Virus record (IMG/VR): IMGVR_UViG_3300045988_119743
Source: a virus
Strand: one strand, 5' to 3'
Length of the DNA: 64,000 bases
The notes under the pieces are model-generated. The model ran no database searches. It was not told where the DNA came from and saw only the letters and a list, made by a program, of their open reading frames with translations. Every line of letters begins with the position of its first letter. The stretch's first letter is position 1. Shown piece after piece: positions 32,887 through 59,310 of this stretch. The translations under genes and the position numbers were made by a program.

Positions 32887-33123
32887 ATGAGGTATTTTAT
32901 TTTATTGATGGCACTTGTGTTATCATCATGTTCGCATGATGATAGTCAGGTTAATAACGGATGGGTTATATATGATCTACGTCCTTTAGAAGATGGATGT
33001 ATAATGTATTATGGTGAAGACGAAAGAATTTCAATATTTTATAATAATAGGCTTATAAAATTCGTTGGACACCAAGGGGAATACAATATCGGAGATTCTG
33101 TTAAGATCGTAAAAGTGAAATAA
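32887..33123 (+). CDS. small lipoprotein (signal peptide + lipobox)
   Basis: MRYFILLMALVLSSC: hydrophobic h-region followed by an L-S-S-C lipobox; 78 aa. Confidence 0.5.
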   Translation: MRYFILLMALVLSSCSHDDSQVNNGWVIYDLRPLEDGCIMYYGEDERISIFYNNRLIKFVGHQGEYNIGDSVKIVKVK

Positions 33124-33124
33124 T

Positions 33125-33613
33125 ATGGAAAAGAATTTAAAACTTGTATGTCCAAAATGTGGCACCCCTCACCAGCCTCATTCTCCGCACACGATGGATG
33201 CAGATGGATTTGAAAGGTGTGAGATAAGAACTGTCATGGAAGACAGGGGATGGTGCTACGAATGCTCTTTTTGGCAAAATATGTACGACAAGCACAAAGA
33301 CGATCCTGGATGGGTTAGGATAGACGGTGAAAGCTGGGTGCTTAAGCCTATGGTGGAAAACGTACCGAGTGGATGGAACAGCCTTGGATGTGGTGGAAGA
33401 AAAATGTATATCAATATCGAAGGGAAAGGCATTGTTACATCAAATAACTGCTGGTGTCAAGGTGATGTTTCGGACGCATTCAAGGATCTTATGCCTGATA
33501 ATGCTACTTGGGCTACGAAGGAGGAATTTGACAAAGCTCCTGTAGTAGGATACGTTATAGAAGGTGTTGGTTTGGTTTTCACAGATAGGGGAGGTCATGA
33601 AGTTAATGCTTAG
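33125..33613 (+). CDS. hypothetical Cys-rich protein
   Basis: 162 aa with CPKCG...C...CYEC...CWCQG. Confidence 0.45.
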   Translation: MEKNLKLVCPKCGTPHQPHSPHTMDADGFERCEIRTVMEDRGWCYECSFWQNMYDKHKDDPGWVRIDGESWVLKPMVENVPSGWNSLGCGGRKMYINIEGKGIVTSNNCWCQGDVSDAFKDLMPDNATWATKEEFDKAPVVGYVIEGVGLVFTDRGGHEVNA

Positions 33614-49170: not shown

Positions 49171-51426
49171 TTACCTGCATTCCAATTTATTAAGATCATC
49201 CAATTCAGGCTTGCTTACGGTCATGTCTTGCGTCAAGCCAGATCTGTTTTGGTATGGAGCGTAATCGGTTTCTACCGTCTTAGCCTTCTGAGTAGAATCG
49301 TATTTCACCTCTGATTCGGTTCCTGTCAGATTTTGATAGATAGAGCCGGAACTGCTCTCGCCAACTTTAGTGAACACCGTGTTCCCTATTCTGATAAAAT
49401 TATTATACAACCCTTCTACGATAACATTACCATCCTGCTTAGTTATGTTATGATCCCGAACCTCATTTAAGAGATTAGGATGTTTTGTAAAAAGATCGTG
49501 ATAGAAATCAGAACCGGCATATAACATATCATAATAATCCAAATAGAACAGATCTGTAAAAGAAGGATCGGTGCTGCTCATGCTATACTCAAATAGCTGT
49601 TCACGATCATTACCTGCCAAAGATAGTTCAATTTGTTTTAACGTATCCGGATCTGAAATGGTAAGACCCAGTAAATGATCTGGTTTAAAGTCAAGATACT
49701 TGTATGCCCCTTCATACACTTCCGTATTATGAAGCTTATTTTCAAGATAAGATTGGTATAAATCGAATAAGAGTAAAGGATTCTCTTTGTCCTGCTTTCT
49801 GTTTATGTATCGGCTAAACTCCCGTTCTTCATTAACATACGGACTTTCAGGAATAACAAGATGACCAAACGCCAATCTGGTAGCATTCATCTCTTCCGTA
49901 TTCTGAGAATCGGTATAAGACAGGACGTATTTTTTAATAGAATCAGCAAGGGCCTTACTATCTACGTTTTTCACGCGGAGCTTATCTAAAACACCATCTT
50001 TAAAACAATATTCAGGATAGATACCAGGTGGGAAATAAGTTAGGCTCTGCTTGGCAAGCTCGGCAGCCATATCGTACAAATCACCTAAATTATCTCTTTC
50101 TACCTTATGATATAGGTTTCCACCAAGATAAAGCAGAGAATGATTTTCAAATGCCGATACTGGATCTATGTCAGATTCCATATAAACGATATTCATATTA
50201 TCCATATACTCTGGCAAAAACATAACACGGCGATCCCTGCTATCTCCAAGAACGTCATCAATAGCAGAAGCTAAAGTAGGAGCATAAGTATCATCGTTGC
50301 GCCTTGCTACATAAATATCAAGATCCAACATCAAGCTATCAATTTTATTCAGCGATTCTTCTGTTCCGTCATATGCCTTAGACACGCCTACGATATCTAT
50401 ACCAAGACCCACACAAGCCTCTTCTACGTCCCATATCATACTTCTAAGGTCTTCTTCTGTATCAGCATTAACCCTATTTAGAAAGGCTGATATACGAGCT
50501 CGTAATGACTCAGATCCAATAGGGCTGTAATAAGCATAATCTTGCAACTTTGATAATGACCGTCTCTTCCCTTCTACGATATTATTATCTTCTAAAGCCA
50601 CAACCGGAACGATGTTCATATTCGAAAATTCGTTGAACATCGACAAGGCAAAACTCTTATCCGACTGATATCTTTCAACTAACTCCGGATATGAATCAGA
50701 TAAAGATCCGAAAGCAGCATCAAACTCTGAAGCAACACTAATACCTCCTACTGTATTTTTTATAGCCTCATAAACTTCAGCCGGATTGTATGATGCTCTC
50801 TTTCCTAATTTATTGAAGACGCCTTTTTTATACACAACAGGACCGTATGGTTTTTCTACGGTTGTGAAGTAAAACTCTTTCCCAAGATCGTGTTCGTTAT
50901 TAGAATAGTCTAATAATAGCCTCATAAAAGAGCTGACCTCATTGAATACAGAAGGATTATCTAATATCCTACTTATTTCCGTCTCATTATACAAGCCGGA
51001 TCTTCTTAGATTTTCTTCATTTAGGATAAGATTGCCATCCACATAAAAAGAGCTTCTAACTCTATTAATAAGAGATCGTATGCTATATATGGAATTGGAT
51101 ATCATAACATCTCTTACATCCTTAACATCCTGAGCCGTTAAGGGATCGGAAAAATAAGCCTGACGCTTCATATACGACAGCACATCTTCTAAAAGAGGTT
51201 CGCCATTAGGATCGGTATTAAACATCTCCCCTGGAGCCGGGTTATTCCAATGACCGTAATACGACAAAAAACCAGGAGTGTAAGCCTTAGCCCATACCTG
51301 AAGAGCCCGCTCGCTGTTTCCTAATACTTTTAAAGCACTTTCGTAAAGAACGGAAGGCTCCCCGTTAGGAGCCTTAACCCGTTTTATTTCATTTTCCTTT
51401 TTTTCTATCTGACATTTGACACCCAT
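49171..51426 (-). CDS. large virion-module protein (~751 aa from the ATG at 51426)
   Basis: Long minus-strand ORF. The first ATG (MGVKCQIEKK) is at 51426; the track start at 51447 is a TTG. Function unassigned; portal or other structural roles are possible. Confidence 0.6.
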   Translation of the reverse strand: MGVKCQIEKKENEIKRVKAPNGEPSVLYESALKVLGNSERALQVWAKAYTPGFLSYYGHWNNPAPGEMFNTDPNGEPLLEDVLSYMKRQAYFSDPLTAQDVKDVRDVMISNSIYSIRSLINRVRSSFYVDGNLILNEENLRRSGLYNETEISRILDNPSVFNEVSSFMRLLLDYSNNEHDLGKEFYFTTVEKPYGPVVYKKGVFNKLGKRASYNPAEVYEAIKNTVGGISVASEFDAAFGSLSDSYPELVERYQSDKSFALSMFNEFSNMNIVPVVALEDNNIVEGKRRSLSKLQDYAYYSPIGSESLRARISAFLNRVNADTEEDLRSMIWDVEEACVGLGIDIVGVSKAYDGTEESLNKIDSLMLDLDIYVARRNDDTYAPTLASAIDDVLGDSRDRRVMFLPEYMDNMNIVYMESDIDPVSAFENHSLLYLGGNLYHKVERDNLGDLYDMAAELAKQSLTYFPPGIYPEYCFKDGVLDKLRVKNVDSKALADSIKKYVLSYTDSQNTEEMNATRLAFGHLVIPESPYVNEEREFSRYINRKQDKENPLLLFDLYQSYLENKLHNTEVYEGAYKYLDFKPDHLLGLTISDPDTLKQIELSLAGNDREQLFEYSMSSTDPSFTDLFYLDYYDMLYAGSDFYHDLFTKHPNLLNEVRDHNITKQDGNVIVEGLYNNFIRIGNTVFTKVGESSSGSIYQNLTGTESEVKYDSTQKAKTVETDYAPYQNRSGLTQDMTVSKPELDDLNKLECR

Positions 51427-51467
51427 AGTGATAAATATTTTAGACAAAGATAGTATAAAAATAGAAA

Positions 51468-52055
51468 TTATGAAACTTCTATTTCATAATGCGAAGCCTT
51501 TGTCTCAACTATCAATCTTCCCTCTCCTTCGAACTCAACGCTATCATTTCCTGGACCAGTAACAAAAGGGAAATCAGATACGGATGTTACATAATCTCCA
51601 GAACCACCGGAGAAAGACTGACTTTTACTTTGTTTGTAATTGATAGTCAATTGTGTTTTACCTATCTGAAGAGTTCCAGATAAATTTTTAGTATAAGTAG
51701 TGGTAGTTGTAATATCCCCATTTTTATAACAATACATTATAAAGGTGGTAACCGGACTCTTTTTTATATTACTATCCGGACCTGCATGATAAGATTCATT
51801 TCCTCCAAATATGCTATAAATGTGACAATAAGGACCGACTCTTTTACTTGAAGTTTTAGCCTTATCCTCGACTCCTTTCAAAGATATAGTAACCTTACTC
51901 TTGTATTCAATATCCTTCCAATTACAGACTCCTTCACTTACGTTTCCAACAAACCTGTCATCAACATAAACCTCTATATCCCCCTGCTGATTGGTCTTCA
52001 ACTGATACTGAACAAGATTTGAAACATCTTCGTATCTCCTTCTCATACTCAACAC
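51468..52055 (-). CDS. beta-rich S/T/G/Y/N-rich protein (cassette gene 2), possible adhesin/receptor-binding module
   Basis: 195 aa. The probable start is the ATG giving MRRRYEDV, which lies inside repeat module A. Composition: TTTTTYTKNLSGTLQIGKTQLTINYKQSKSQSFSGGSGDYV. Confidence 0.45.
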   Translation of the reverse strand: MLSMRRRYEDVSNLVQYQLKTNQQGDIEVYVDDRFVGNVSEGVCNWKDIEYKSKVTISLKGVEDKAKTSSKRVGPYCHIYSIFGGNESYHAGPDSNIKKSPVTTFIMYCYKNGDITTTTTYTKNLSGTLQIGKTQLTINYKQSKSQSFSGGSGDYVTSVSDFPFVTGPGNDSVEFEGEGRLIVETKASHYEIEVS

Positions 52056-52134
52056 TCCTTATTTAACTCATTTATCGAATTTTTCTATCTGACATTTGAC
52101 ACCCATAATAATTAACTTTTTTTTTCAAAATTAA

Positions 52135-52629
52135 CTATAAAATCGACTTATACAATGACGGATCCCAAACTCCTTCTATATAAATCTCTGGGAAACTCAA
52201 ACTGCCATCACGAAGAGTGGTAACTTTCAAACTGGGAATGTTAAAAACAGTGCTAACATCACTAAACTCACCATTCAACTTAATAGCATTTCCACTATTA
52301 TCAGCTTCATAATAATAATAACAATAATTTTCATTAAGACTCGGATCATATTCGTACCAATATGTTAGATCTTGCATATGGTCTTCTATATTACCAATTT
52401 TATTTCCACCTAATATAAAAATACCATTATTGCTATGATGATAAACCGTAGATTCATAATTACCATAATTCCAGTCACTATTAAACACTATATCACTGAC
52501 ATCGGAATCATGATCTTTTAATACAGGTCCTATATGTATATGAATTTTATTAAACTGACATACATAAGGTCTTTTTCCTCCAAGCCTTTTTATCTCTTCA
52601 TTAGATAACTTATTATAACATCCTCCCAC
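52135..52629 (-). CDS. beta-rich N/Y/G-rich protein (cassette gene 1)
   Basis: 164 aa; GTG start in the track. NSDWNYGNYESTVYHHSNNGIFILGGNKIGN...YCYYYYEADNSGN. Confidence 0.4.
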   Translation of the reverse strand: MGGCYNKLSNEEIKRLGGKRPYVCQFNKIHIHIGPVLKDHDSDVSDIVFNSDWNYGNYESTVYHHSNNGIFILGGNKIGNIEDHMQDLTYWYEYDPSLNENYCYYYYEADNSGNAIKLNGEFSDVSTVFNIPSLKVTTLRDGSLSFPEIYIEGVWDPSLYKSIL

Positions 52630-52668
52630 AAAATTATCCGCAGCATTAAAAAAATCTCCTTCTCATAC

Positions 52669-55600
52669 TCAACACTCTTTATTTAACTCATTTATCGAAT
52701 CCGAATTATCAGAACCTTCTACGAGATTCTTATTTCTATCTATCTCTTCCTGGCTCATATTACTCATCATATTTTGTATTTTTCTACCAGATTGAGATAA
52801 AGAGCGGATGAATGCACTGGAACTTATCTTAACTCCAAGATCCGGTTTTACCCTAAACGCTTCACCGGTACTGATATTATACAAATCATACACACCTGAG
52901 TTCATATAGAATTTATATATCCAGTTTCCACCAGCTTTTTTGTACCCTAATTTGGTTAACTCGACTACACTCATACCAAATTTAATGCCATTACGACCCA
53001 TTATCTTCTCCGGTATAGGTTCTACCTTAGCCGGAACAGATGTATATGCTTCATCACCGCCGTACAGGAAATAAGGGGTTGTTACCCTTGATATGTGAGT
53101 AAGCGGTTCTTCGGATATACGAGGTTCGTCTTTCTCGGCCTTAGATTCTTTCCTTGGATTGGATATTCTAATAAAAGGATCGTATGTTAAAAAGGTTAAG
53201 CCGTATTCTACTTTATAACCTGATACGCCGTTAAGATCCCTTATAGCCTTAGTCGTATGCGAGTGGTTGATGGTGTCTATCCCGTACCTTGATTCCATAT
53301 CGGTCATAATGCTATTAACTTCATCCCCCTCTACATAAACCTCTTCTCCTTCCGGGATAGAGGTTATGCCGGCAGCCCTTCTAAGTAACCATAAAGTAAC
53401 TTCGGCAATATCAGAGAACTTATCTCCGTTCTTCTTATAGTTATCTACTCTTCCTTCTTCAGATCCAGGTAAATAGACATCTCCCTCAGCTTTGCCATCA
53501 TCTCTGGGTTGTCCTTCTCTTTTTCCATCTCCCTTTTTATCGCCATCTTCCTCAGCGCGTACTGCACCGCCTTCTGCACTTCCTTCTTTTCCATCATTTA
53601 AAATATTATCTGATTCTGACTCTATAGACTCCACGACAGCATCATACTCTGGAATGCCGCTAAGGAAATCTGCTACGTTATTCAAAAACTCTATTTTTTC
53701 CTCGTTTGTCATATCAAGGCTTTCCATAGGTCTCCATATGGCAGGCAGGTTATTTAATTCTATTGCAGTAGAAACATCTTCTACAGTTTGATTATCTACC
53801 GTAGGCAAAACTTCAGAAACCAAACTATTGATGTCAGATTCCATTTTTTCTACTTCCTCTTTTGTGCCATATTCTTTTAGGGTATCCATGCCATTGACTC
53901 TAAGAGAATAATTCAAAGCCTTGCTTGGAACAAAATTAATATATTTCAAAAAGTTTTTCAACTCTGATATAATTTGTTCGTCAGATCTTGGCCCAACATA
54001 ATCAACCACCACCTGATCTGTTTGAGAACGAAGCCAAGAAACGTATTCTTCTAAGGTCTTACCACCTTTACTGGAAGGAGTGGATATTTTATCACCTACT
54101 GTTCCTTTAGGTTCTAATCCCATTTCTTCCTTAAGGCTTTTAGGATTACCTCTCTCACGAAGAAACCTCAAATCACCTCCTACAATCTTCCTTGCTATAA
54201 AATCAAAAATATTAGCATAAGGCGGCAATCCCTCTTTTTCTATATGAGATTCTATTTCGTTTAACATAAGAGAGAAGTTTTTCCTGGAGGTACGCTTCTT
54301 GCCAGGTAAAGACCGCGCAGCTTGTGCCGCAGGAGTCGGCTGAGCTAATGGCGCCGGCTGAGTCTCCCGGACAGCCCCTTCCTCTGGCATTTCCTCTTCA
54401 TAAACATCCACGTCTTCTTTAGAAGTAACGGTCTTACCCTCATCAGAGAAAGGAAGATCATCCTCTATAAGTGATTTAGGTCTAGAAGATGATTTACCAA
54501 ACTGAATCCTGATCTTAGGAGCGACAAACATCTCACCTTCGAAATCTATTCCAGATTCTACTTCAGACATCACAATGTCTTTCACATTCCTGCTTTCATC
54601 TTCTACCCATTTAACAACATCAGGAACCGTAGATAATTTTTCTATAGCCTCACGAGCTTTTCTAAGCCCTGAAATAGGATTCAAATACGATACTTGATAC
54701 GAAGCCGGATCAAGGCCTAACTTGGTTAGATACGCATTAAGATCTTGTATATCATCTTGACCCATCTGTAACAATTCAGAGTCACCTGATTCAAGCAGCA
54801 TATCTATAAAAGAAATCCATTTCTTTCCTTCCTCTGATTCCACAGAACGTAGACTAACCGGGAAAAGATAATTAAGACCGTTTTTGCCTTTGATGACAAC
54901 TACCGGAACTCTTACATTTTTGTAATTATTCCCCTTGTCATTTAATATAGAATAAGCAAATGGGAAGCCTGTGTATTTAGATCCGTTCTTAAGCACGACT
55001 TTGCCATTTAATACATATCCGACATCAGATACTTTTTCAGCTCCTTTTTCGGTAATAGGGAGATTTTCTACCTGACCATATCCTTGACCGTTTACTCTCA
55101 TGTTAAACACCGGTCTTCCAGGAAGGGTCTGGGCAACAACATGCGTGCCGACGTTGATGGTGGCCGACCGGCCGGCGTCCTTCTTCCACTTGTTAAAAGC
55201 CGTTCTTCTTATCTTACTTATACCATCTATGCCTCCTGTGTCAGCTTTTACAACAGAAACGAATCTGTTTCCACTCATGACCTTGATAACCATATTGGAT
55301 ACCAGCTTATTTTCAGCAGATTCTATTCTTTTTTTATCACCGGACTGAACAGCATCATTGTATTCGGCAAAAAGAGACTGATTATAGGTATCATTTGCAT
55401 CTATCTCAAGATTAACCTTATCTCCTTTCTTCAAAGAAGATAATGCTTCCTGATCTATTTTATCTACTTCATTCTCTCCGAATCCAACACCTGTTCTGTA
55501 CGGAACCAATTCGTCTGAATCAAGACGCTTATAAACCAAAGAATATGAATTACCCACGTCCTGAATAGACACATCTGTGTAACGGTTAAGAACACGAGCC

Positions 55601-58600
55601 GATTCTTTGTCTATAGACCATCTCGCATGATAAGGCAGTTCAATTATAGTAGCCGTTTCTCCACCTATGTTAAGAGAATACCTTTTAGTACCATTAGCGT
55701 TCGTTTCAGAGCTTATTTGAATAGGAACCAATGATTTTATAGAAGATATAAATTTATCGGCTCTAAGACCTGCAATTTCATACCTTTCATTGCCGTCATT
55801 GGAGATTCTTCTTACCATCAACGTCTCTGGATTCTGGGCGCTATCTATATTGGCTCCCGGCGTATTATCAGATTCGTCTAATTCATTTACAAGAGAATCT
55901 ATATTAGCATCATCCTCCCCAAAATTACTTAACGTAGATTCGGAAATACGACCTTTATCAATAATCCTGTTTTGTTCGATATAAGGAAGGAGATCCGTGA
56001 TGTTTCCAACCTGGCCAAGATCTTCTATGGTAAATACCGAATCGGCAAGCTTATCTTCGTCAACTTTCTCCCCTTTGTCCCGTCTGTTCATTATATCAAC
56101 ATACGAAGAAATAGCATCATCAAGTTCCTTCCTTTGATCTGGTTCCAAATTGGATTTAGCCATATCAATAATAGCTTTATTATCCTCATACACAGATCTC
56201 GGACTTGTAAGCCTATCAGCCTTTTCAGATAATGATTTTATGAGATTAACGGGACTGTCACCCAAAGACGATACATAATCATCAAAATCTTGTTTGTATT
56301 TATCATACACATCTTTTTCTCTCTCAGTAAGAAGATCGGCATTACCTGTATATAGTTTATCAATTATAGACTGCCTTACGGCCGGAACCATAATAGGATT
56401 ATCCATAGCAGCCTCATAATCTTCATCCGATACAGACTCCGTAAGCGGTGACTCTTTTATATCATCTTCTGCTTCCTTCATCCTATCTTCCCTTACTTTA
56501 TCAAGAGCATGCATAAAAGCCTTGATAGTCCAAGCTTCGTCTTCCGAAATCTTACCTTCTGACACAGCTTGATCTACTACCTCATCAGTGTCATATTCAC
56601 CAACTTTATTAGACTCTGCAAAATCAGGAACCTTGTCATCCCCTTTATAAGGAGTAGACCATAGAGAAGACAGCGCTTTTGAAAACCCCCTGTTTTCCTC
56701 AGCTAAGAATCTTTTATCAAGCATCTTAGACAAGAAGTTATTCATATTCCTATAGTCCATCAAACTTCTTCGGTATTCATTTACCAAGGATCTCATGGCT
56801 TTGTCTTTGGCTGTAAACTTCTTTTCCTGTCTTGATTTTACATTAAAATAATCATCAAAAGCCACAAGCGTATCATAGGCTTCTATCACATCTTGTGAAC
56901 TTATGGGAGAAAGAGGAGATGATAAAACAGATTCGGTTTTACTTACCAGCTCTTCTATCGAAAACTCTTTTCCTATTAACGTTGATAACTCAGACAACGA
57001 ATTGTTGTAATTGGTTCTAAGGCTTTCCAATTCTTTGGTTTTTCGTTGTATGGATTCAGCTTGTGGATCTTTCCCTTCTACGTTGCGAGGGCGGGTAGCA
57101 AGATCTTCTATTTCGGATTCAAGTTCTTCTATTCTTGACCGTATGCCACGGATAGCCATCGCCCGCTCCCTTGCCCTGTCCGACAGCCGGGAGAACGTAC
57201 TTAGAGCATCCGCCACGCGAGGCTGCCCCGAAAGCGTTTCTATGACAGAAGCTATGTCTTTCATTCTTGATTCCGATTGAAGACCAAGAAAAGCATTACG
57301 AGCCACGTATTTCCTAAACTCAATCTTAGAATCATCACCTATAAGATCTTCGGCAAAACTCTGGGCAGATCTGAAATCCGAAAGACGATTATTATAATTA
57401 TCAATAATAGAGTCCTTGTATTTCTTTGCCTCTTCCAAAGACATTCCATTAGCTTCGGCTATTTCCGAAATAGGCATCATATCAATCATCTGCCGGAAAT
57501 TTTCAGCCGAATCCTCTAAGGTTCCCATTTGGTTGTCAATAGACATCTTTTCAAACATAGCATCATCAAGCTCCTTACCAGTCATAGACTGGGCATCGGA
57601 ACGAACTTGAGGCCCTAAACTCATTGATTTTTTCAACGTATTCAAAGCCGCCGTGTTAAGATTAGAAGATGCTTTGTTATATTCATTCACTTGCCTTTCC
57701 AGCAAGATCTGACTATTACTATACTCTTTCACCCCAAAGAAGCCTTCTCTCATACCAAACAAAGAACCGATAATAGCACCGATTCCTATTTCAGTCCATC
57801 CTTCTTTAGACGTATATTGCTTTTTAAATCCTTCAGAAATAGCATCAAGAACATCAACGGCTCCGTTCATGGCGACATTATCATATCTTGACTTAACATA
57901 TTCCTCAGCCGTATTCTGAACAGCACCTTGAGATCCTTCTTCCCATAAGCCTTCAGATACCGGTCTTTTCATGATATTGAAAACATTGCCTGCTATCTTC
58001 TGTCCTATATTGGGATTGGTTATTTTAATAGCCATCTCTCCCGGCTTCGCAACTTCCGTCCCTAATCCAAATAAATGCTTGTTGAGCCTCTTTTCCAACC
58101 CTGGTATAGCCTTGCCTCCTAACCCTATATACTTACCAAAAAGAAGCCAGTTAGATAATCCTACGATACCCATATTGGCGGCAAATATAGCACTACCTAC
58201 ATCAGCATTAGAATTACGAAAAACAGCCATTTCCTCTGCATTGGGATCACGACCATAAATCTTACGATAATAATCCTTGAAATCAGACTCAGATTGCTTC
58301 ATAAAAGAATTTGCTTCAACCGATGACTCGAATCCGGCACTGGTAGCCAACAACGTCATGGTCTTAGCCGCCTCCCCTACATTTCTTCCGGTAGCAACTC
58401 CTTTTCTTACATAGTCGTTAAACACGCTTTTAAGGCTTCCTATGCCCCTATTGGCAGCTTGCCTTGCTGCTAACTTAGCTCCGATTCTTCCACCTAATTT
58501 AGCGCCTATATTACCCAATGATCCAACTCCAAGTCCTCCGGTCATGTACGCTGATATCATGGCTCCTACGGTAAAAGACATACCATTACCAAGGACGTCA

Positions 58601-59310
58601 TTCCACAAGAAATTACCGGTATCCTTAAAAAGCTTCTGACCAAAATTATAATCTTCTACCTCTTTCTTGTAATAATGGGGAAGAAGCATGTCTATTTGCT
58701 GGTCAAGATCACCTACAAACTTATCCATGTTAGTGTTTAACGCAGCTTTGTAACTTCCCTCAGATGCCATATTGATAAGTTTGTCAGGCAATGACACAAC
58801 TCCTTGTGCACCGTACAATGCGGATTTTAAAGCGAATTTGCCTACACCATTCCAAAACTTACTCCATCCGCTCTGTCTCCTGGCATAATAATCTTCATTG
58901 TTTATACCCGGAATATAGTTAGAATATTTTGTACGCCATACCCCATCATTACCCATCTGATGACTTTCACGGATACTTACCTTCGGTCCATAGGGATTAA
59001 GAGGCGGCGGGGCAGGTGTAGCCCCCCTGTAGCTGTTACGAGCCAGTGCCTCTGAGTAGCTGTTGCTTATCTCCTTGGCTATATACGGTTCTTCGTATTC
59101 GGCAGCAGCTATCCTTGATGCGTAATCCGGAAATTTAGGTTGGGCATACACACCTTCACCAGGCATATAATTAGGAACCAGAGGCGTTGTCGTCTCTGGT
59201 AATGTAGCCGGAGTGTAATTCTCTTCTTCGGCTAATTTCCTTTGCCTTGCCACATCTTCGTAAGTGGTTTTAGCAGCAGGATTATATCTATCTATATTAT
59301 TGTCAGCCAT
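52669..59310 (-). CDS. giant virion-associated protein (2213 aa)
   Basis: Uninterrupted 6.6-kb ORF with an internal acidic/Gly low-complexity linker (AEEDGDKKGDGKREGQPRDDGKAEGD). Overlaps the upstream 1019-aa gene by 8 nt. Confidence 0.8.
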   Translation of the reverse strand: MADNNIDRYNPAAKTTYEDVARQRKLAEEENYTPATLPETTTPLVPNYMPGEGVYAQPKFPDYASRIAAAEYEEPYIAKEISNSYSEALARNSYRGATPAPPPLNPYGPKVSIRESHQMGNDGVWRTKYSNYIPGINNEDYYARRQSGWSKFWNGVGKFALKSALYGAQGVVSLPDKLINMASEGSYKAALNTNMDKFVGDLDQQIDMLLPHYYKKEVEDYNFGQKLFKDTGNFLWNDVLGNGMSFTVGAMISAYMTGGLGVGSLGNIGAKLGGRIGAKLAARQAANRGIGSLKSVFNDYVRKGVATGRNVGEAAKTMTLLATSAGFESSVEANSFMKQSESDFKDYYRKIYGRDPNAEEMAVFRNSNADVGSAIFAANMGIVGLSNWLLFGKYIGLGGKAIPGLEKRLNKHLFGLGTEVAKPGEMAIKITNPNIGQKIAGNVFNIMKRPVSEGLWEEGSQGAVQNTAEEYVKSRYDNVAMNGAVDVLDAISEGFKKQYTSKEGWTEIGIGAIIGSLFGMREGFFGVKEYSNSQILLERQVNEYNKASSNLNTAALNTLKKSMSLGPQVRSDAQSMTGKELDDAMFEKMSIDNQMGTLEDSAENFRQMIDMMPISEIAEANGMSLEEAKKYKDSIIDNYNNRLSDFRSAQSFAEDLIGDDSKIEFRKYVARNAFLGLQSESRMKDIASVIETLSGQPRVADALSTFSRLSDRARERAMAIRGIRSRIEELESEIEDLATRPRNVEGKDPQAESIQRKTKELESLRTNYNNSLSELSTLIGKEFSIEELVSKTESVLSSPLSPISSQDVIEAYDTLVAFDDYFNVKSRQEKKFTAKDKAMRSLVNEYRRSLMDYRNMNNFLSKMLDKRFLAEENRGFSKALSSLWSTPYKGDDKVPDFAESNKVGEYDTDEVVDQAVSEGKISEDEAWTIKAFMHALDKVREDRMKEAEDDIKESPLTESVSDEDYEAAMDNPIMVPAVRQSIIDKLYTGNADLLTEREKDVYDKYKQDFDDYVSSLGDSPVNLIKSLSEKADRLTSPRSVYEDNKAIIDMAKSNLEPDQRKELDDAISSYVDIMNRRDKGEKVDEDKLADSVFTIEDLGQVGNITDLLPYIEQNRIIDKGRISESTLSNFGEDDANIDSLVNELDESDNTPGANIDSAQNPETLMVRRISNDGNERYEIAGLRADKFISSIKSLVPIQISSETNANGTKRYSLNIGGETATIIELPYHARWSIDKESARVLNRYTDVSIQDVGNSYSLVYKRLDSDELVPYRTGVGFGENEVDKIDQEALSSLKKGDKVNLEIDANDTYNQSLFAEYNDAVQSGDKKRIESAENKLVSNMVIKVMSGNRFVSVVKADTGGIDGISKIRRTAFNKWKKDAGRSATINVGTHVVAQTLPGRPVFNMRVNGQGYGQVENLPITEKGAEKVSDVGYVLNGKVVLKNGSKYTGFPFAYSILNDKGNNYKNVRVPVVVIKGKNGLNYLFPVSLRSVESEEGKKWISFIDMLLESGDSELLQMGQDDIQDLNAYLTKLGLDPASYQVSYLNPISGLRKAREAIEKLSTVPDVVKWVEDESRNVKDIVMSEVESGIDFEGEMFVAPKIRIQFGKSSSRPKSLIEDDLPFSDEGKTVTSKEDVDVYEEEMPEEGAVRETQPAPLAQPTPAAQAARSLPGKKRTSRKNFSLMLNEIESHIEKEGLPPYANIFDFIARKIVGGDLRFLRERGNPKSLKEEMGLEPKGTVGDKISTPSSKGGKTLEEYVSWLRSQTDQVVVDYVGPRSDEQIISELKNFLKYINFVPSKALNYSLRVNGMDTLKEYGTKEEVEKMESDINSLVSEVLPTVDNQTVEDVSTAIELNNLPAIWRPMESLDMTNEEKIEFLNNVADFLSGIPEYDAVVESIESESDNILNDGKEGSAEGGAVRAEEDGDKKGDGKREGQPRDDGKAEGDVYLPGSEEGRVDNYKKNGDKFSDIAEVTLWLLRRAAGITSIPEGEEVYVEGDEVNSIMTDMESRYGIDTINHSHTTKAIRDLNGVSGYKVEYGLTFLTYDPFIRISNPRKESKAEKDEPRISEEPLTHISRVTTPYFLYGGDEAYTSVPAKVEPIPEKIMGRNGIKFGMSVVELTKLGYKKAGGNWIYKFYMNSGVYDLYNISTGEAFRVKPDLGVKISSSAFIRSLSQSGRKIQNMMSNMSQEEIDRNKNLVEGSDNSDSINELNKEC

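What the first reader, a model, noticed from the sequence alone, without database searches (positions are those of the whole stretch)
51401..52700. Tandem [A-gene-B][A-gene-B] cassette architecture with duplicated junction modules and truncated start-codon stubs
Module A is 47 nt, at 52654-52700 and 52034-52080 with 1 mismatch. It comprises the last 8 codons plus stop of the 2213-aa gene, followed by ATG AGA AGG AGA. Module B is 27 nt, exact, at 52081-52107 and 51401-51427. It is the reverse complement of ATG GGT GTC AAA TGT CAG ATA GAA AA, the first 9 codons (MGVKCQIEK) of the 758-aa gene. On the minus strand the order is A2 - gene164 - B2·A1 - gene195 - B1. In A1 the MRRR start runs into the 195-aa gene. 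In A2 it gives a 6-codon stub (MRRRFF*). B1 starts the 758-aa gene, while B2 gives a 12-codon stub (MGVKCQIEKFDK*). This is the footprint of tandem duplication or modular recombination at conserved junctions, with the internal gene swapped. Both cassette proteins are beta-rich and N/Y/G/S/T-rich, like adhesin/receptor-binding modules. The locus may be a host-range or surface-recognition diversification cassette between virion genes, and the stubs could act as regulatory uORFs.
Basis: seen in the sequence. Interest (0 to 1): 0.62.

Follow-up and report, generated by a model that had tools for sequence, protein, structure and literature searches.

The report
Two alternative phage genes stacked together
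In this gut (epsilon crAss-like) phage, two unrelated small genes that normally replace each other at one slot between virion genes have been joined head-to-tail, and the scar lies close to where a transposon's RNA-guided nuclease (TnpB), present at this site in sister phages, is expected to cut.

Summary
The repeats are real and are the only long direct repeats in the 64-kb window. Module A is 47 nt with 1 mismatch. Module B is 28 nt exact.

About 130 related loci explain them. One slot lies between a 2213-aa virion protein gene and a 752-aa gene. It holds either a 176-aa ORFan ("gene164", 58 loci) or an unrelated 192-aa ORFan ("gene195", 44 loci, as in reference phage crAssE-Sib). Sixteen loci carry both, in either order. 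The two orders have different right breakpoints and the same left breakpoint, 25 nt past a TAT motif at the start of the 752-aa gene.

The window is a 164>195 stack formed by illegitimate joining of two allelic genomes. Five ENA/Logan assemblies carry the same junction, so it is not an assembly artefact.

The "MRRRFF* stub" is the true start of gene164, put out of frame by a T7 run (T6 in 85 of 96 relatives). It is not a uORF. The other stub is a junction by-product.

About 9-10% of relatives carry a TnpB (IS605-family) element at that TAT. Its guide would then be module B and its cut would fall near the shared breakpoint. A TnpB-induced break as the cause is inferred, not shown.

Nothing supports an adhesin or receptor-binding role: no homologues, and both AlphaFold models failed.

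The parts
52669..59310 (-). 2213-aa virion 'structural protein' gene. Its last 8 codons plus the TGA stop lie in module A2.
   Evidence: ORF. PHROG 32390. The orthologue WOZ57301.1 is annotated 'structural protein' in crAssE-Sib.
52654..52700 (-). Module A2, the native copy: end of the 2213-aa gene, a 2-nt spacer, then ATG AGA AGG AGA T, which is the start of the cassette gene.
   Evidence: The haplotype with AAAGAG also occurs in native A copies of relatives.
52648..52654 (-). T7 homopolymer. It puts the A2 ATG (52664-52666) out of frame with gene164.
   Evidence: Run length in relatives: T6 in 85 of 96, T7 in 6, T5 in 4, T9 in 1. All five ENA/Logan tandem assemblies have T6.
52135..52666 (-). 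Gene164: a 176-aa ORFan in relatives (MRRRFFNAADNF...). In the window it is frameshifted after codon 6. The open frame runs 52135-52647, with a possible GTG restart at 52629.
   Evidence: GC is 30.6% against 38-40% in the neighbouring genes.
52108..52134 (-). Intergenic region of the 164 type, carried along with gene164. It contains a TAATTTTG box (52126-52133), a variable A-run (52117-52125, A9 here) and the TAM-like TTAT (52105-52108, where the last AT is also the first two bases of the ATG).
52080..52107 (-). Module B2: a duplicated fragment of the 752-aa gene start (TATGGGTGTCAAATGTCAGATAGAAAAA). It ends 25 nt after the TAT. It equals the guide-matching flank of the TnpB-1 element found at this site in relatives.
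52068..52106 (-). Junction stub ORF MGVKCQIEKFDK*, a by-product of the B2|A1 join.
   Evidence: Sequence. The other tandem class has MGVKCQIEK* instead.
52079..52080 (-). Novel joint J27 (..CAGATAGAAAAA|TTCGATAAATGAG..), with 1 nt (A) of microhomology.
   Evidence: The identical joint occurs in 8 unique IMG/VR loci and in 5 ENA/Logan assemblies.
52034..52080 (-). Module A1: a duplicated fragment holding the 3' end of the 2213-aa gene plus the start of gene195.
   Evidence: It is identical to the native A of crAssE-Sib.
51468..52046 (-). Gene195: a 192-aa ORFan (MRRRYEDVSNLV...). It is the only occupant of the slot in crAssE-Sib (WOZ57302.1).
51428..51467 (-). Intergenic region of the 195 type, with a TATCTTTG box (51445-51452) and CTAT immediately before the target.
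51400..51427 (-). Module B1, the native copy: the start of the 752-aa gene. In the window it is an empty TnpB-1 target site.
49171..51426 (-). 752-aa gene (ATG at 51424-51426). The first ~270-300 nt are conserved, after which two allele groups differ at 74% nt identity.
   Evidence: The orthologue is WOZ57303.1.

Best explanation
The window comes from an epsilon crAss-like gut phage. One accessory-gene slot lies between the 2213-aa virion protein gene and the 752-aa gene. In the population this slot holds one of two unrelated, lineage-restricted, dispensable ORFans. They are exchanged by homologous recombination in the conserved flanks (shown).

In the window's lineage the two alleles were stacked by one illegitimate join. 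The left piece is a genome of the 164 type, ending 25 nt into the 752-aa gene. It was joined, through 1 nt of microhomology, to a genome of the 195 type at a point 24 nt before the stop codon of its 2213-aa gene. The join leaves B2.A1 as a scar (shown by comparison with relatives).

The reverse stack (195>164) arose independently. It has the same left breakpoint, and its right breakpoint lies 33 nt further upstream (shown).

Proposed cause of the shared left breakpoint (inferred). Sister genomes carry an IS605-family TnpB element inserted exactly at TAT|GGGTGTC. Its omega-RNA guide would then read GGGTGTCAAATGTCAG... It would direct a TAM-distal double-strand break in empty copies of the site during co-infection or replication. 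Occasionally the TAM-proximal end was not repaired by homologous 'cut-and-copy'. It primed or joined by microhomology upstream of the cassette in another genome copy.

The stack can resolve back to either single allele through the 47-nt or the 28-nt repeat (prediction).

In the window itself gene164 is additionally knocked out of frame at its real start by a T6>T7 change.
For: Identity of the phage:
- 82% nt identity to crAssE-Sib OR575929, which has the single A-gene195-B arrangement.
- The published description is PMC11054128.

Census of 131 unique related loci:
- 164 only: 58
- 195 only: 44
- 164>195: 8
- 195>164: 8
- 164 or 195 plus TnpB: 11
- 195 plus another insert: 2

The stack is real:
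- The junction sequences are identical within each tandem class.
- A census anchored on B, blind to the cassette genes, found only native contexts plus these two joints.
- Five ENA/Logan assemblies from different samples and assemblers carry J27.

The flanks:
- They are conserved over hundreds of nt and are mosaic with respect to cassette type.

The two events are independent:
- The cassette allele lineages differ.
- The internal A haplotypes differ.
- The 33-nt difference cannot be produced by homologous exchange.

The TnpB link:
- The 410-aa ORF matches OrfB_IS605 (E 1.7e-20) and Cas12f1-like TNB (E 2.4e-12).
- Element ends and an HTAT TAM were defined from about 15-18 distinct insertion sites, listed as 20 flank-context classes.
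- The B site is the commonest of these, with 16 of the 52 copies whose ends were found.
- The right-end region folds with z = -4.9.
- ISDra2 TnpB cuts at 15 nt and 20-21 nt from its TAM, and TnpB breaks in empty sites drive recombination (PMC8612924; bioRxiv 10.1101/2023.03.14.532601).
- The contig with the closest 164 allele carries a TnpB-1-family copy elsewhere (L285).

The cassette genes are dispensable:
- T-run frameshifts.
- Many deletion variants.
- A 164/195 chimera, P0037.
- Replacement of most of gene164 by another TnpB element.
Against: - No TnpB gene is present in the 64-kb window. Whether the rest of this genome has one is unknown.
- The breakpoint is at TAM+25 (range 22-25 once microhomology is allowed for). 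That is 1-4 nt beyond the 20-21 nt cut measured for ISDra2 TnpB. The cut position of this particular TnpB is unknown.
- The breakpoint lies in an A7 run, which could be a hot spot for template switching without any nuclease.
- A second frequent TnpB-1 target site showed no rearrangement joints in 88 loci.
- No Rfam family matched the putative omega-RNA.
- The function of both cassette proteins is entirely unknown.
Confidence: 0.8

Rival explanations
1. The same stacking of two alleles happened, but the shared left breakpoint reflects the A7 homopolymer in codons 8-10 of the 752-aa gene. On this view the run acts as a replication-stalling or template-switch hot spot (FoSTeS/MMBIR), and TnpB plays no part.
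For: Both joints fall inside the A-run. A-run and T-run lengths vary in this locus, so polymerase slippage does occur here. Microhomology at the joints is only 1-3 nt. Site X, another TnpB-1 target, shows no rearrangements.
Against: Homopolymer slippage normally gives +/-1-nt changes, not 600-nt duplications. Both joints keep exactly five A's, as expected from one defined end. The coincidence with the most heavily used TnpB-1 target site would be left unexplained.
Confidence: 0.3
2. A single origin: one tandem joint arose once, and the other order and joint derive from it by later homologous exchanges plus a 33-nt deletion. The shared left breakpoint would then be inherited and would not mark a hot spot.
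For: Recombination in this region is rampant, and the flanks are mosaic. J27 equals J60 minus 33 nt, with 2 nt (AT) of microhomology at the deletion ends.
Against: The route needs at least three events, including crossovers in 27-47-nt homologies. The internal A of J60 carries private changes (AAATAAG, AAAC) that are absent from J27. The 164 and 195 alleles of the two classes belong to different sublineages.
Confidence: 0.12
3. Assembly artefact: two co-existing allelic strains were chained together by the assembler at shared flank k-mers.
For: Both alleles co-circulate in gut samples and share identical flanks.
Against: The B|A joint is a novel sequence with only 1 nt of overlap, and a de Bruijn graph cannot create it from the two parental paths. 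The identical joint recurs in MEGAHIT, SPAdes and Logan assemblies of different samples and in 8 unique IMG/VR contigs.
Confidence: 0.02
4. A dedicated cassette system, integron-like or a programmed host-range switch: A and B act as recombination sites for a site-specific recombinase, and the two short ORFs act as regulatory uORFs.
For: The repeated junction modules and an array-like look. Both cassette genes start with MRRR.
Against: No integrase or recombinase lies next to the locus. A and B contain no inverted-repeat site. They are arbitrary pieces of much longer conserved flanks. The two tandem classes use different right breakpoints. No array has more than two cassettes. The A2 'uORF' is a frameshifted gene start.
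Confidence: 0.03

Closest known systems
Mosaic or modular exchange in tailed-phage genomes, including 'morons' and hyperplastic regions (Botstein's modular theory; Hendrix/Juhala HK97-HK022 comparisons). Recalled from general knowledge; no paper was read here.
   Same: Unrelated genes occupy one position between conserved neighbours. Exchange goes through homologous flanks, with occasional illegitimate joints kept by selection. The extra gene has lower GC than its neighbours.
   Different: Here the illegitimate joint is still visible at nucleotide resolution, as duplicated fragments of both neighbouring genes. Both parental single-allele states and both stacking orders are sampled in the same population.
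TnpB (IS200/IS605) RNA-guided 'cut-and-copy' homing (Karvelis 2021, PMC8612924; Meers 2023, bioRxiv 10.1101/2023.03.14.532601)
   Same: An element with a TnpB ORF sits immediately 3' of a short TAM. The guide region is the right flank. The predicted break in empty sites is TAM-distal and stimulates recombination between genome copies.
   Different: The outcome proposed here is not re-installation of the IS. It is an illegitimate join that duplicates flanks and stacks two host (phage) genes. No tnpA is seen in the element, and cleavage has not been tested.
Recombination next to the cut sites of free-standing or intron-encoded homing endonucleases in T-even phages, which drives co-conversion of flanking markers. 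Recalled from general knowledge.
   Same: A nuclease carried by one co-infecting phage genome cuts the sister genome at a conserved gene start, and recombination concentrates around the cut.
   Different: The nuclease here would be RNA-guided. The product is a duplication joint and not a gene conversion.
Integron gene-cassette arrays
   Same: Small promoterless ORFs lie in series, separated by a repeated junction.
   Different: There is no integrase, no attC or attI and no conserved recombination point. At most two cassettes are seen, and the junction repeats are fragments of the neighbouring genes.
prfB-type +1 frameshift site (UUU UAA after an AGGAG)
   Same: In the window the T7 variant reads AGG AGA UUU UUU UAA. 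A +1 slip of tRNA-Phe would restore the gene164 frame.
   Different: Relatives are overwhelmingly T6 (in frame). T5 variants, which would need the opposite shift, also occur. This is mutational homopolymer variation and not a conserved recoding signal.

Membership tests
Tandem duplication or stacking joint from illegitimate recombination | A novel joint that places the 3' breakpoint sequence directly before the 5' breakpoint sequence, with the flanks duplicated in direct orientation. | tested here: met
   B2 is directly followed by A1. A and B are present twice in direct orientation.
Tandem duplication or stacking joint from illegitimate recombination | Parental, unduplicated arrangements exist in relatives. 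| tested here: met
   58 loci with 164 only and 44 with 195 only, including crAssE-Sib.
Tandem duplication or stacking joint from illegitimate recombination | The two repeated units are copies of one another (a true duplication). | tested here: not met
   Gene164 and gene195 share no similarity at the protein, profile or six-frame level. This is stacking of two alleles, not duplication of one.
IS200/IS605-family TnpB element (in relatives, at the B site) | TnpB protein with a RuvC-like OrfB_IS605 domain and a zinc-ribbon/TNB domain. | tested here: met
   PF01385 at E 1.7e-20 and PF07282 at E 2.4e-12.
IS200/IS605-family TnpB element (in relatives, at the B site) | Insertion 3' of a conserved short motif (TAM) without target-site duplication, and conserved element ends. 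| tested here: met
   About 15-18 distinct sites (20 flank-context classes) all have ..HTAT| on the left. The left end starts RRTGCAAAATAA and the right end finishes ..CATAACAT.
IS200/IS605-family TnpB element (in relatives, at the B site) | A structured omega-RNA at the right end whose guide is the flanking sequence. | tested here: inconclusive
   The right-end region folds with z = -4.9, but there is no Rfam match. Guide use is inferred from the family's known architecture.
IS200/IS605-family TnpB element (in relatives, at the B site) | RNA-guided cleavage of the empty site at the TAM-distal end of the target. | not testable with these tools
   This needs biochemistry. The only evidence here is that both joints end at TAM+22-25, against 15 and 20-21 nt for ISDra2.
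TnpB element present in the window itself | A tnpB ORF or element ends in the 64-kb window. | tested here: not met
   tblastn found no hit. Both B sites and six other target sites are empty.
Integron-like cassette array | A tyrosine-recombinase integrase next to the array, and attC sites (imperfect inverted repeats) at every cassette end. | tested here: not met
   No integrase in the neighbourhood. No inverted repeat in A or B. The breakpoints differ between the two classes.
DGR target or receptor-binding diversification cassette | A template repeat matching a variable region, an RT nearby, and a C-type-lectin or Ig-like fold. | tested here: not met
   No second copy of any cassette segment exists in the window. 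The models are unusable. The crAssE-Sib paper describes the DGR with a separate RBP target gene, whose position relative to this locus was not checked.
Programmed +1 ribosomal frameshift (prfB-like) | The shift site is conserved among relatives, with the two frames always separated. | tested here: not met
   85 of 96 relatives are in frame with T6. T5, T7 and T9 are minor variants.

The most novel reading that the evidence does not exclude
RNA-guided TnpB nucleases carried by IS elements in crAss-like phages do more than preserve their own transposon. By repeatedly breaking a conserved gene start in sister genomes, they create hot spots where accessory genes are swapped, stacked (as in this window), fused (the 164/195 chimera P0037) or deleted. 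The stacked form would be a reversible intermediate able to segregate either allele through its 47-nt and 28-nt repeats.
Probability: 0.3. Interest if true: 0.65.

Novelty: new member of a known kind. Interest (0 to 1): 0.42.

Why it matters
This is a clean natural example of how phage mosaicism is made. Both parental alleles, both stacking orders and the exact joints are preserved in one abundant group of human-gut phages.

If the TnpB link holds, RNA-guided transposon nucleases would shape gene content in phage genomes. They would act through collateral, non-homologous repair products, and not only through their own 'cut-and-copy' spread. The idea is directly testable with a defined 25-nt target.

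Practical point: the annotation of this locus should give gene164 its start at the ATG in module A, and the window copy should be flagged as frameshifted.

Tried and rejected
Function of the cassette proteins:
- Pfam, PHROGs and PADLOC gave nothing.
- Profile searches against PDB sequences gave nothing below E = 0.4.
- Word-indexed homology searches found only close relatives in the same phage lineage.
- An exhaustive HMMER search of 1.84 billion representatives with the gene164 profile found one full-length cluster, fragments, and one weak repetitive hit, P0074.
- AlphaFold2 gave pLDDT 30.1 and 37.7, so no fold search was run.

Relationship between the two genes:
- BLASTP, hhalign and a six-frame comparison showed only the shared MRRR.

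DGR idea:
- It was prompted by variable N/Y-rich positions in gene164.
- No template-like repeat exists in the window.

Test of the TnpB idea at another target site (site X):
- 88 loci, no rearrangement joints. This is uninformative or mildly negative.

Other checks:
- Rfam gave no match for an omega-RNA.
- The sigma-70 promoter and terminator scan showed nothing above shuffles.
- The Bacteroidetes TAnnTTTG box is not enriched in the window overall. It does occur 18-19 nt upstream of both B ATGs.
- A literature search for 'csAssE' found nothing. The paper was found under the spelling 'crAssE-Sib'.

Full report
**1. The observation**

Reading the minus strand of 51200-52900 and running the repeat finder confirm both repeat families.
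- A is 47 nt, at 52654-52700 and 52034-52080, with 1 mismatch.
- B is 28 nt exact, at 51400-51427 and 52080-52107. It continues at 88% identity over 42 nt.

They are the only direct repeats of at least 24 nt in the 64-kb window. Markov simulations of the 4-kb region never gave an exact repeat longer than 17 nt.

The minus-strand order is: end of the 2213-aa gene with A2, gene164, B2 abutting A1, gene195, then B1 at the start of the 752-aa gene.

**2. What the genome is**

The region is 82% identical to phage crAssE-Sib (OR575929, deposited as 'csAssE-Sib'). This is a 151-kb epsilon crAss-like phage from the human gut, described in PMC11054128.

The locus sits in the block of very large virion proteins.

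In crAssE-Sib a single 192-aa gene, the orthologue of gene195, lies between the 2208-aa structural protein and the 752-aa protein. It has one copy of A and one of B. Relative to that reference the window has 620 extra bases: gene164 plus the B2.A1 joint.

**3. The population picture**

Searches of IMG/VR with both cassette proteins returned 147 related loci, which collapse to 131 unique ones.

| Arrangement | Unique loci |
|---|---|
| gene164 only | 58 |
| gene195 only | 44 |
| 164>195 (as in the window) | 8 |
| 195>164 | 8 |
| 164 + TnpB element | 10 |
| 195 + TnpB element | 1 |
| 195 + another insert | 2 |

Further points:
- The two genes share nothing except their first four codons, MRRR, which lie inside A.
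- The flanks are 97-99% conserved for about 450 nt left of A and about 270 nt right of B. They are mosaic with respect to cassette type.
- A and B are therefore not special elements. They are the pieces of long conserved flanks that fell inside the breakpoints of a stacking event.
- Five ENA/Logan assemblies from different samples and assemblers carry exactly the window's joint. The joint has only 1 nt of overlap between its two sides, so an assembly artefact is excluded.

**4. The 'stubs'**

Upstream of gene164 the run of T after ATGAGAAGGAGA has these lengths in relatives:
- T6 in 85 of 96
- T7 in 6 (including the window)
- T5 in 4
- T9 in 1

With T6 the ATG in module A opens a 176-aa protein, MRRRFFNAADNF..., which is how gene callers report it. 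The window's MRRRFF* is therefore the real gene164 start, put out of frame by one extra T (52648-52654).

A GTG at 52629, or a low-level +1 slip at UUU UAA, might still give some product. The mixture of T5, T7 and T9 variants argues for mutational noise and against recoding.

The B2 stub (52068-52106) is a by-product of the join. In the other tandem class it is MGVKCQIEK*.

**5. Two independent joints with one shared end**

The two joints are:
- 164>195 arrays: ..CAGATAGAAAAA|TTCGATAAATGAG.. (J27)
- 195>164 arrays: ..CAGATAGAAAAA|TAAGAATCTCG.., which carries 33 more bases of the 2213-aa gene before A (J60)

The left end is the same to the nucleotide, with five A's in both. The right ends differ.

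The evidence favours two separate events:
- The internal A of J60 carries private substitutions.
- The cassette alleles of the two classes come from different sublineages.
- The 33-nt difference cannot be produced by homologous exchange.

A census anchored on B, blind to cassette genes, found only native continuations plus these two joints.

**6. Why that end? The TnpB lead**

About a dozen of the loci retrieved with the cassette proteins, and 11 of about 124 B copies in the B-anchored sample, carry a 1.4-kb element inserted exactly at the start codon of the 752-aa gene. Its 410-aa ORF is a TnpB, matching OrfB_IS605 and the Cas12f1-like TNB domain.

I compared about 15-18 distinct insertion sites of this element family in related phages, listed as 20 flank-context classes. 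This gives:
- a TAM of HTAT
- a left end starting RRTGCAAAATAA
- a right end finishing ..CATAACAT

The B site is the most used, with 16 of the 52 copies whose ends could be found.

In IS200/IS605 elements the guide of the omega-RNA is the sequence flanking the right end. TnpB cuts empty sites TAM-distally: 15 nt and 20-21 nt for ISDra2 (PMC8612924). This provokes recombination between genome copies (bioRxiv 10.1101/2023.03.14.532601).

Here the guide-matching flank is module B. Both joints end at TAM+25, or 22-25 once microhomology is allowed for. The right-end region folds well (z = -4.9).

I therefore propose that a TnpB break in an empty B site left a TAM-proximal end. That end was then joined or primed by 1-3 nt of microhomology upstream of the cassette in another genome copy.

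This step is inferred. The cautions are:
- The window has no TnpB.
- The breakpoint is 1-4 nt beyond the ISDra2 cut position.
- The breakpoint lies in an A7 run, which could itself be a template-switch hot spot.
- Another TnpB-1 target site showed no joints in 88 loci.
- No Rfam model matched.

**7. What the cassette genes do**

Their function is unknown. Both are ORFans confined to this phage lineage. Neither has a family, defence-system or structure match, and neither gave a usable model. Their GC content is lower than that of the neighbouring genes.

They appear dispensable:
- frameshifts at the T-run
- many internal deletions
- an in-frame 164/195 chimera, P0037
- replacement of most of gene164 by a third TnpB element

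The adhesin or receptor-binding idea has no support. According to the crAssE-Sib paper, the DGR-diversified receptor-binding protein is a separate RBP target gene; its position relative to this locus was not checked.

**8. Verdict**

The feature is a new, well-documented member of a known kind, namely an illegitimate-recombination joint in a phage accessory-gene slot. It carries a plausible and testable link to RNA-guided TnpB cleavage, and that link makes it moderately interesting.

Noticed in passing
window 32967-33127 (also 8748 and 28720): The window contains empty copies of six other TnpB-1 target sites (TAM TAT plus a flank identical or with 1 mismatch to sites occupied in relatives). 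Four lie within 160 bp at 32967, 32974, 33090 and 33127, so this looks like a second IS hot spot at the junction of the plus- and minus-strand gene blocks.
   Followed up: partly
related loci L265-L341 (e.g. L005 4,6xx-5,98x): The TnpB-1 element ends in ..CATAACAT and inserts after TAT. When the target is TAT|G, the downstream gene's ATG start codon is rebuilt from element plus flank. Seven of the listed sites are of this kind. This looks like a way of inserting at gene starts without killing the gene.
   Followed up: partly
L108/L165, L203, L137 and L202, L247: Two further, different TnpB elements occupy the same slot in other genomes. A 379-aa TnpB on the opposite strand sits at the 3' end of, or inside, gene195. 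A 407-aa TnpB replaces gene164 after about codon 38.
   Followed up: partly
protein P0037 (115 aa; from a 21.9-kb Logan contig): An in-frame chimera of gene164 residues 1-63 and gene195 residues 141-192. This is presumably a deletion inside a 164>195 array that fuses two unrelated ORFs.
   Followed up: no
window 49171-51150 (752-aa gene beyond ~270-300 nt from its ATG): The 752-aa gene exists as two allele groups only 74% identical at the nucleotide level. The window belongs to the minority group (29 of 130 loci). The switch point is sharp, which marks another mosaic boundary.
   Followed up: partly
window 52117-52125 and 52648-52654: Both homopolymers at the locus are longer in the window (A9, T7) than in the five ENA/Logan tandem assemblies (A7, T6). 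This is either real slippage or homopolymer error in the source assembly. The very long ORFs nearby are intact.
   Followed up: partly
window 51445-51452 and 52126-52133 (minus strand): A TAnnTTTG box (the Bacteroidetes -7 promoter motif, from general knowledge) lies 18-19 nt upstream of both copies of the 752-aa gene ATG. In the stack, gene195 would then sit behind a duplicated promoter-like element plus the stub. The motif is not enriched in the window overall.
   Followed up: partly
window 51354-51375 (minus strand): A 9-bp GC-rich hairpin, AAGGCTCC-TAAC-GGGGAGCCTT, followed by a T-rich tract lies inside codons 17-24 of the 752-aa gene, 25 nt beyond module B1. It was flagged by the terminator scan.
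   Followed up: no
alignments A1/A3 (gene164 residues 58-80 and 135-137): Amino-acid variation in gene164 is concentrated in an N/Y/G-rich stretch (SDIVFNSDWNYGNYESTVYHH). Many relatives carry in-frame deletions there. No DGR template was found in the window.
   Followed up: partly
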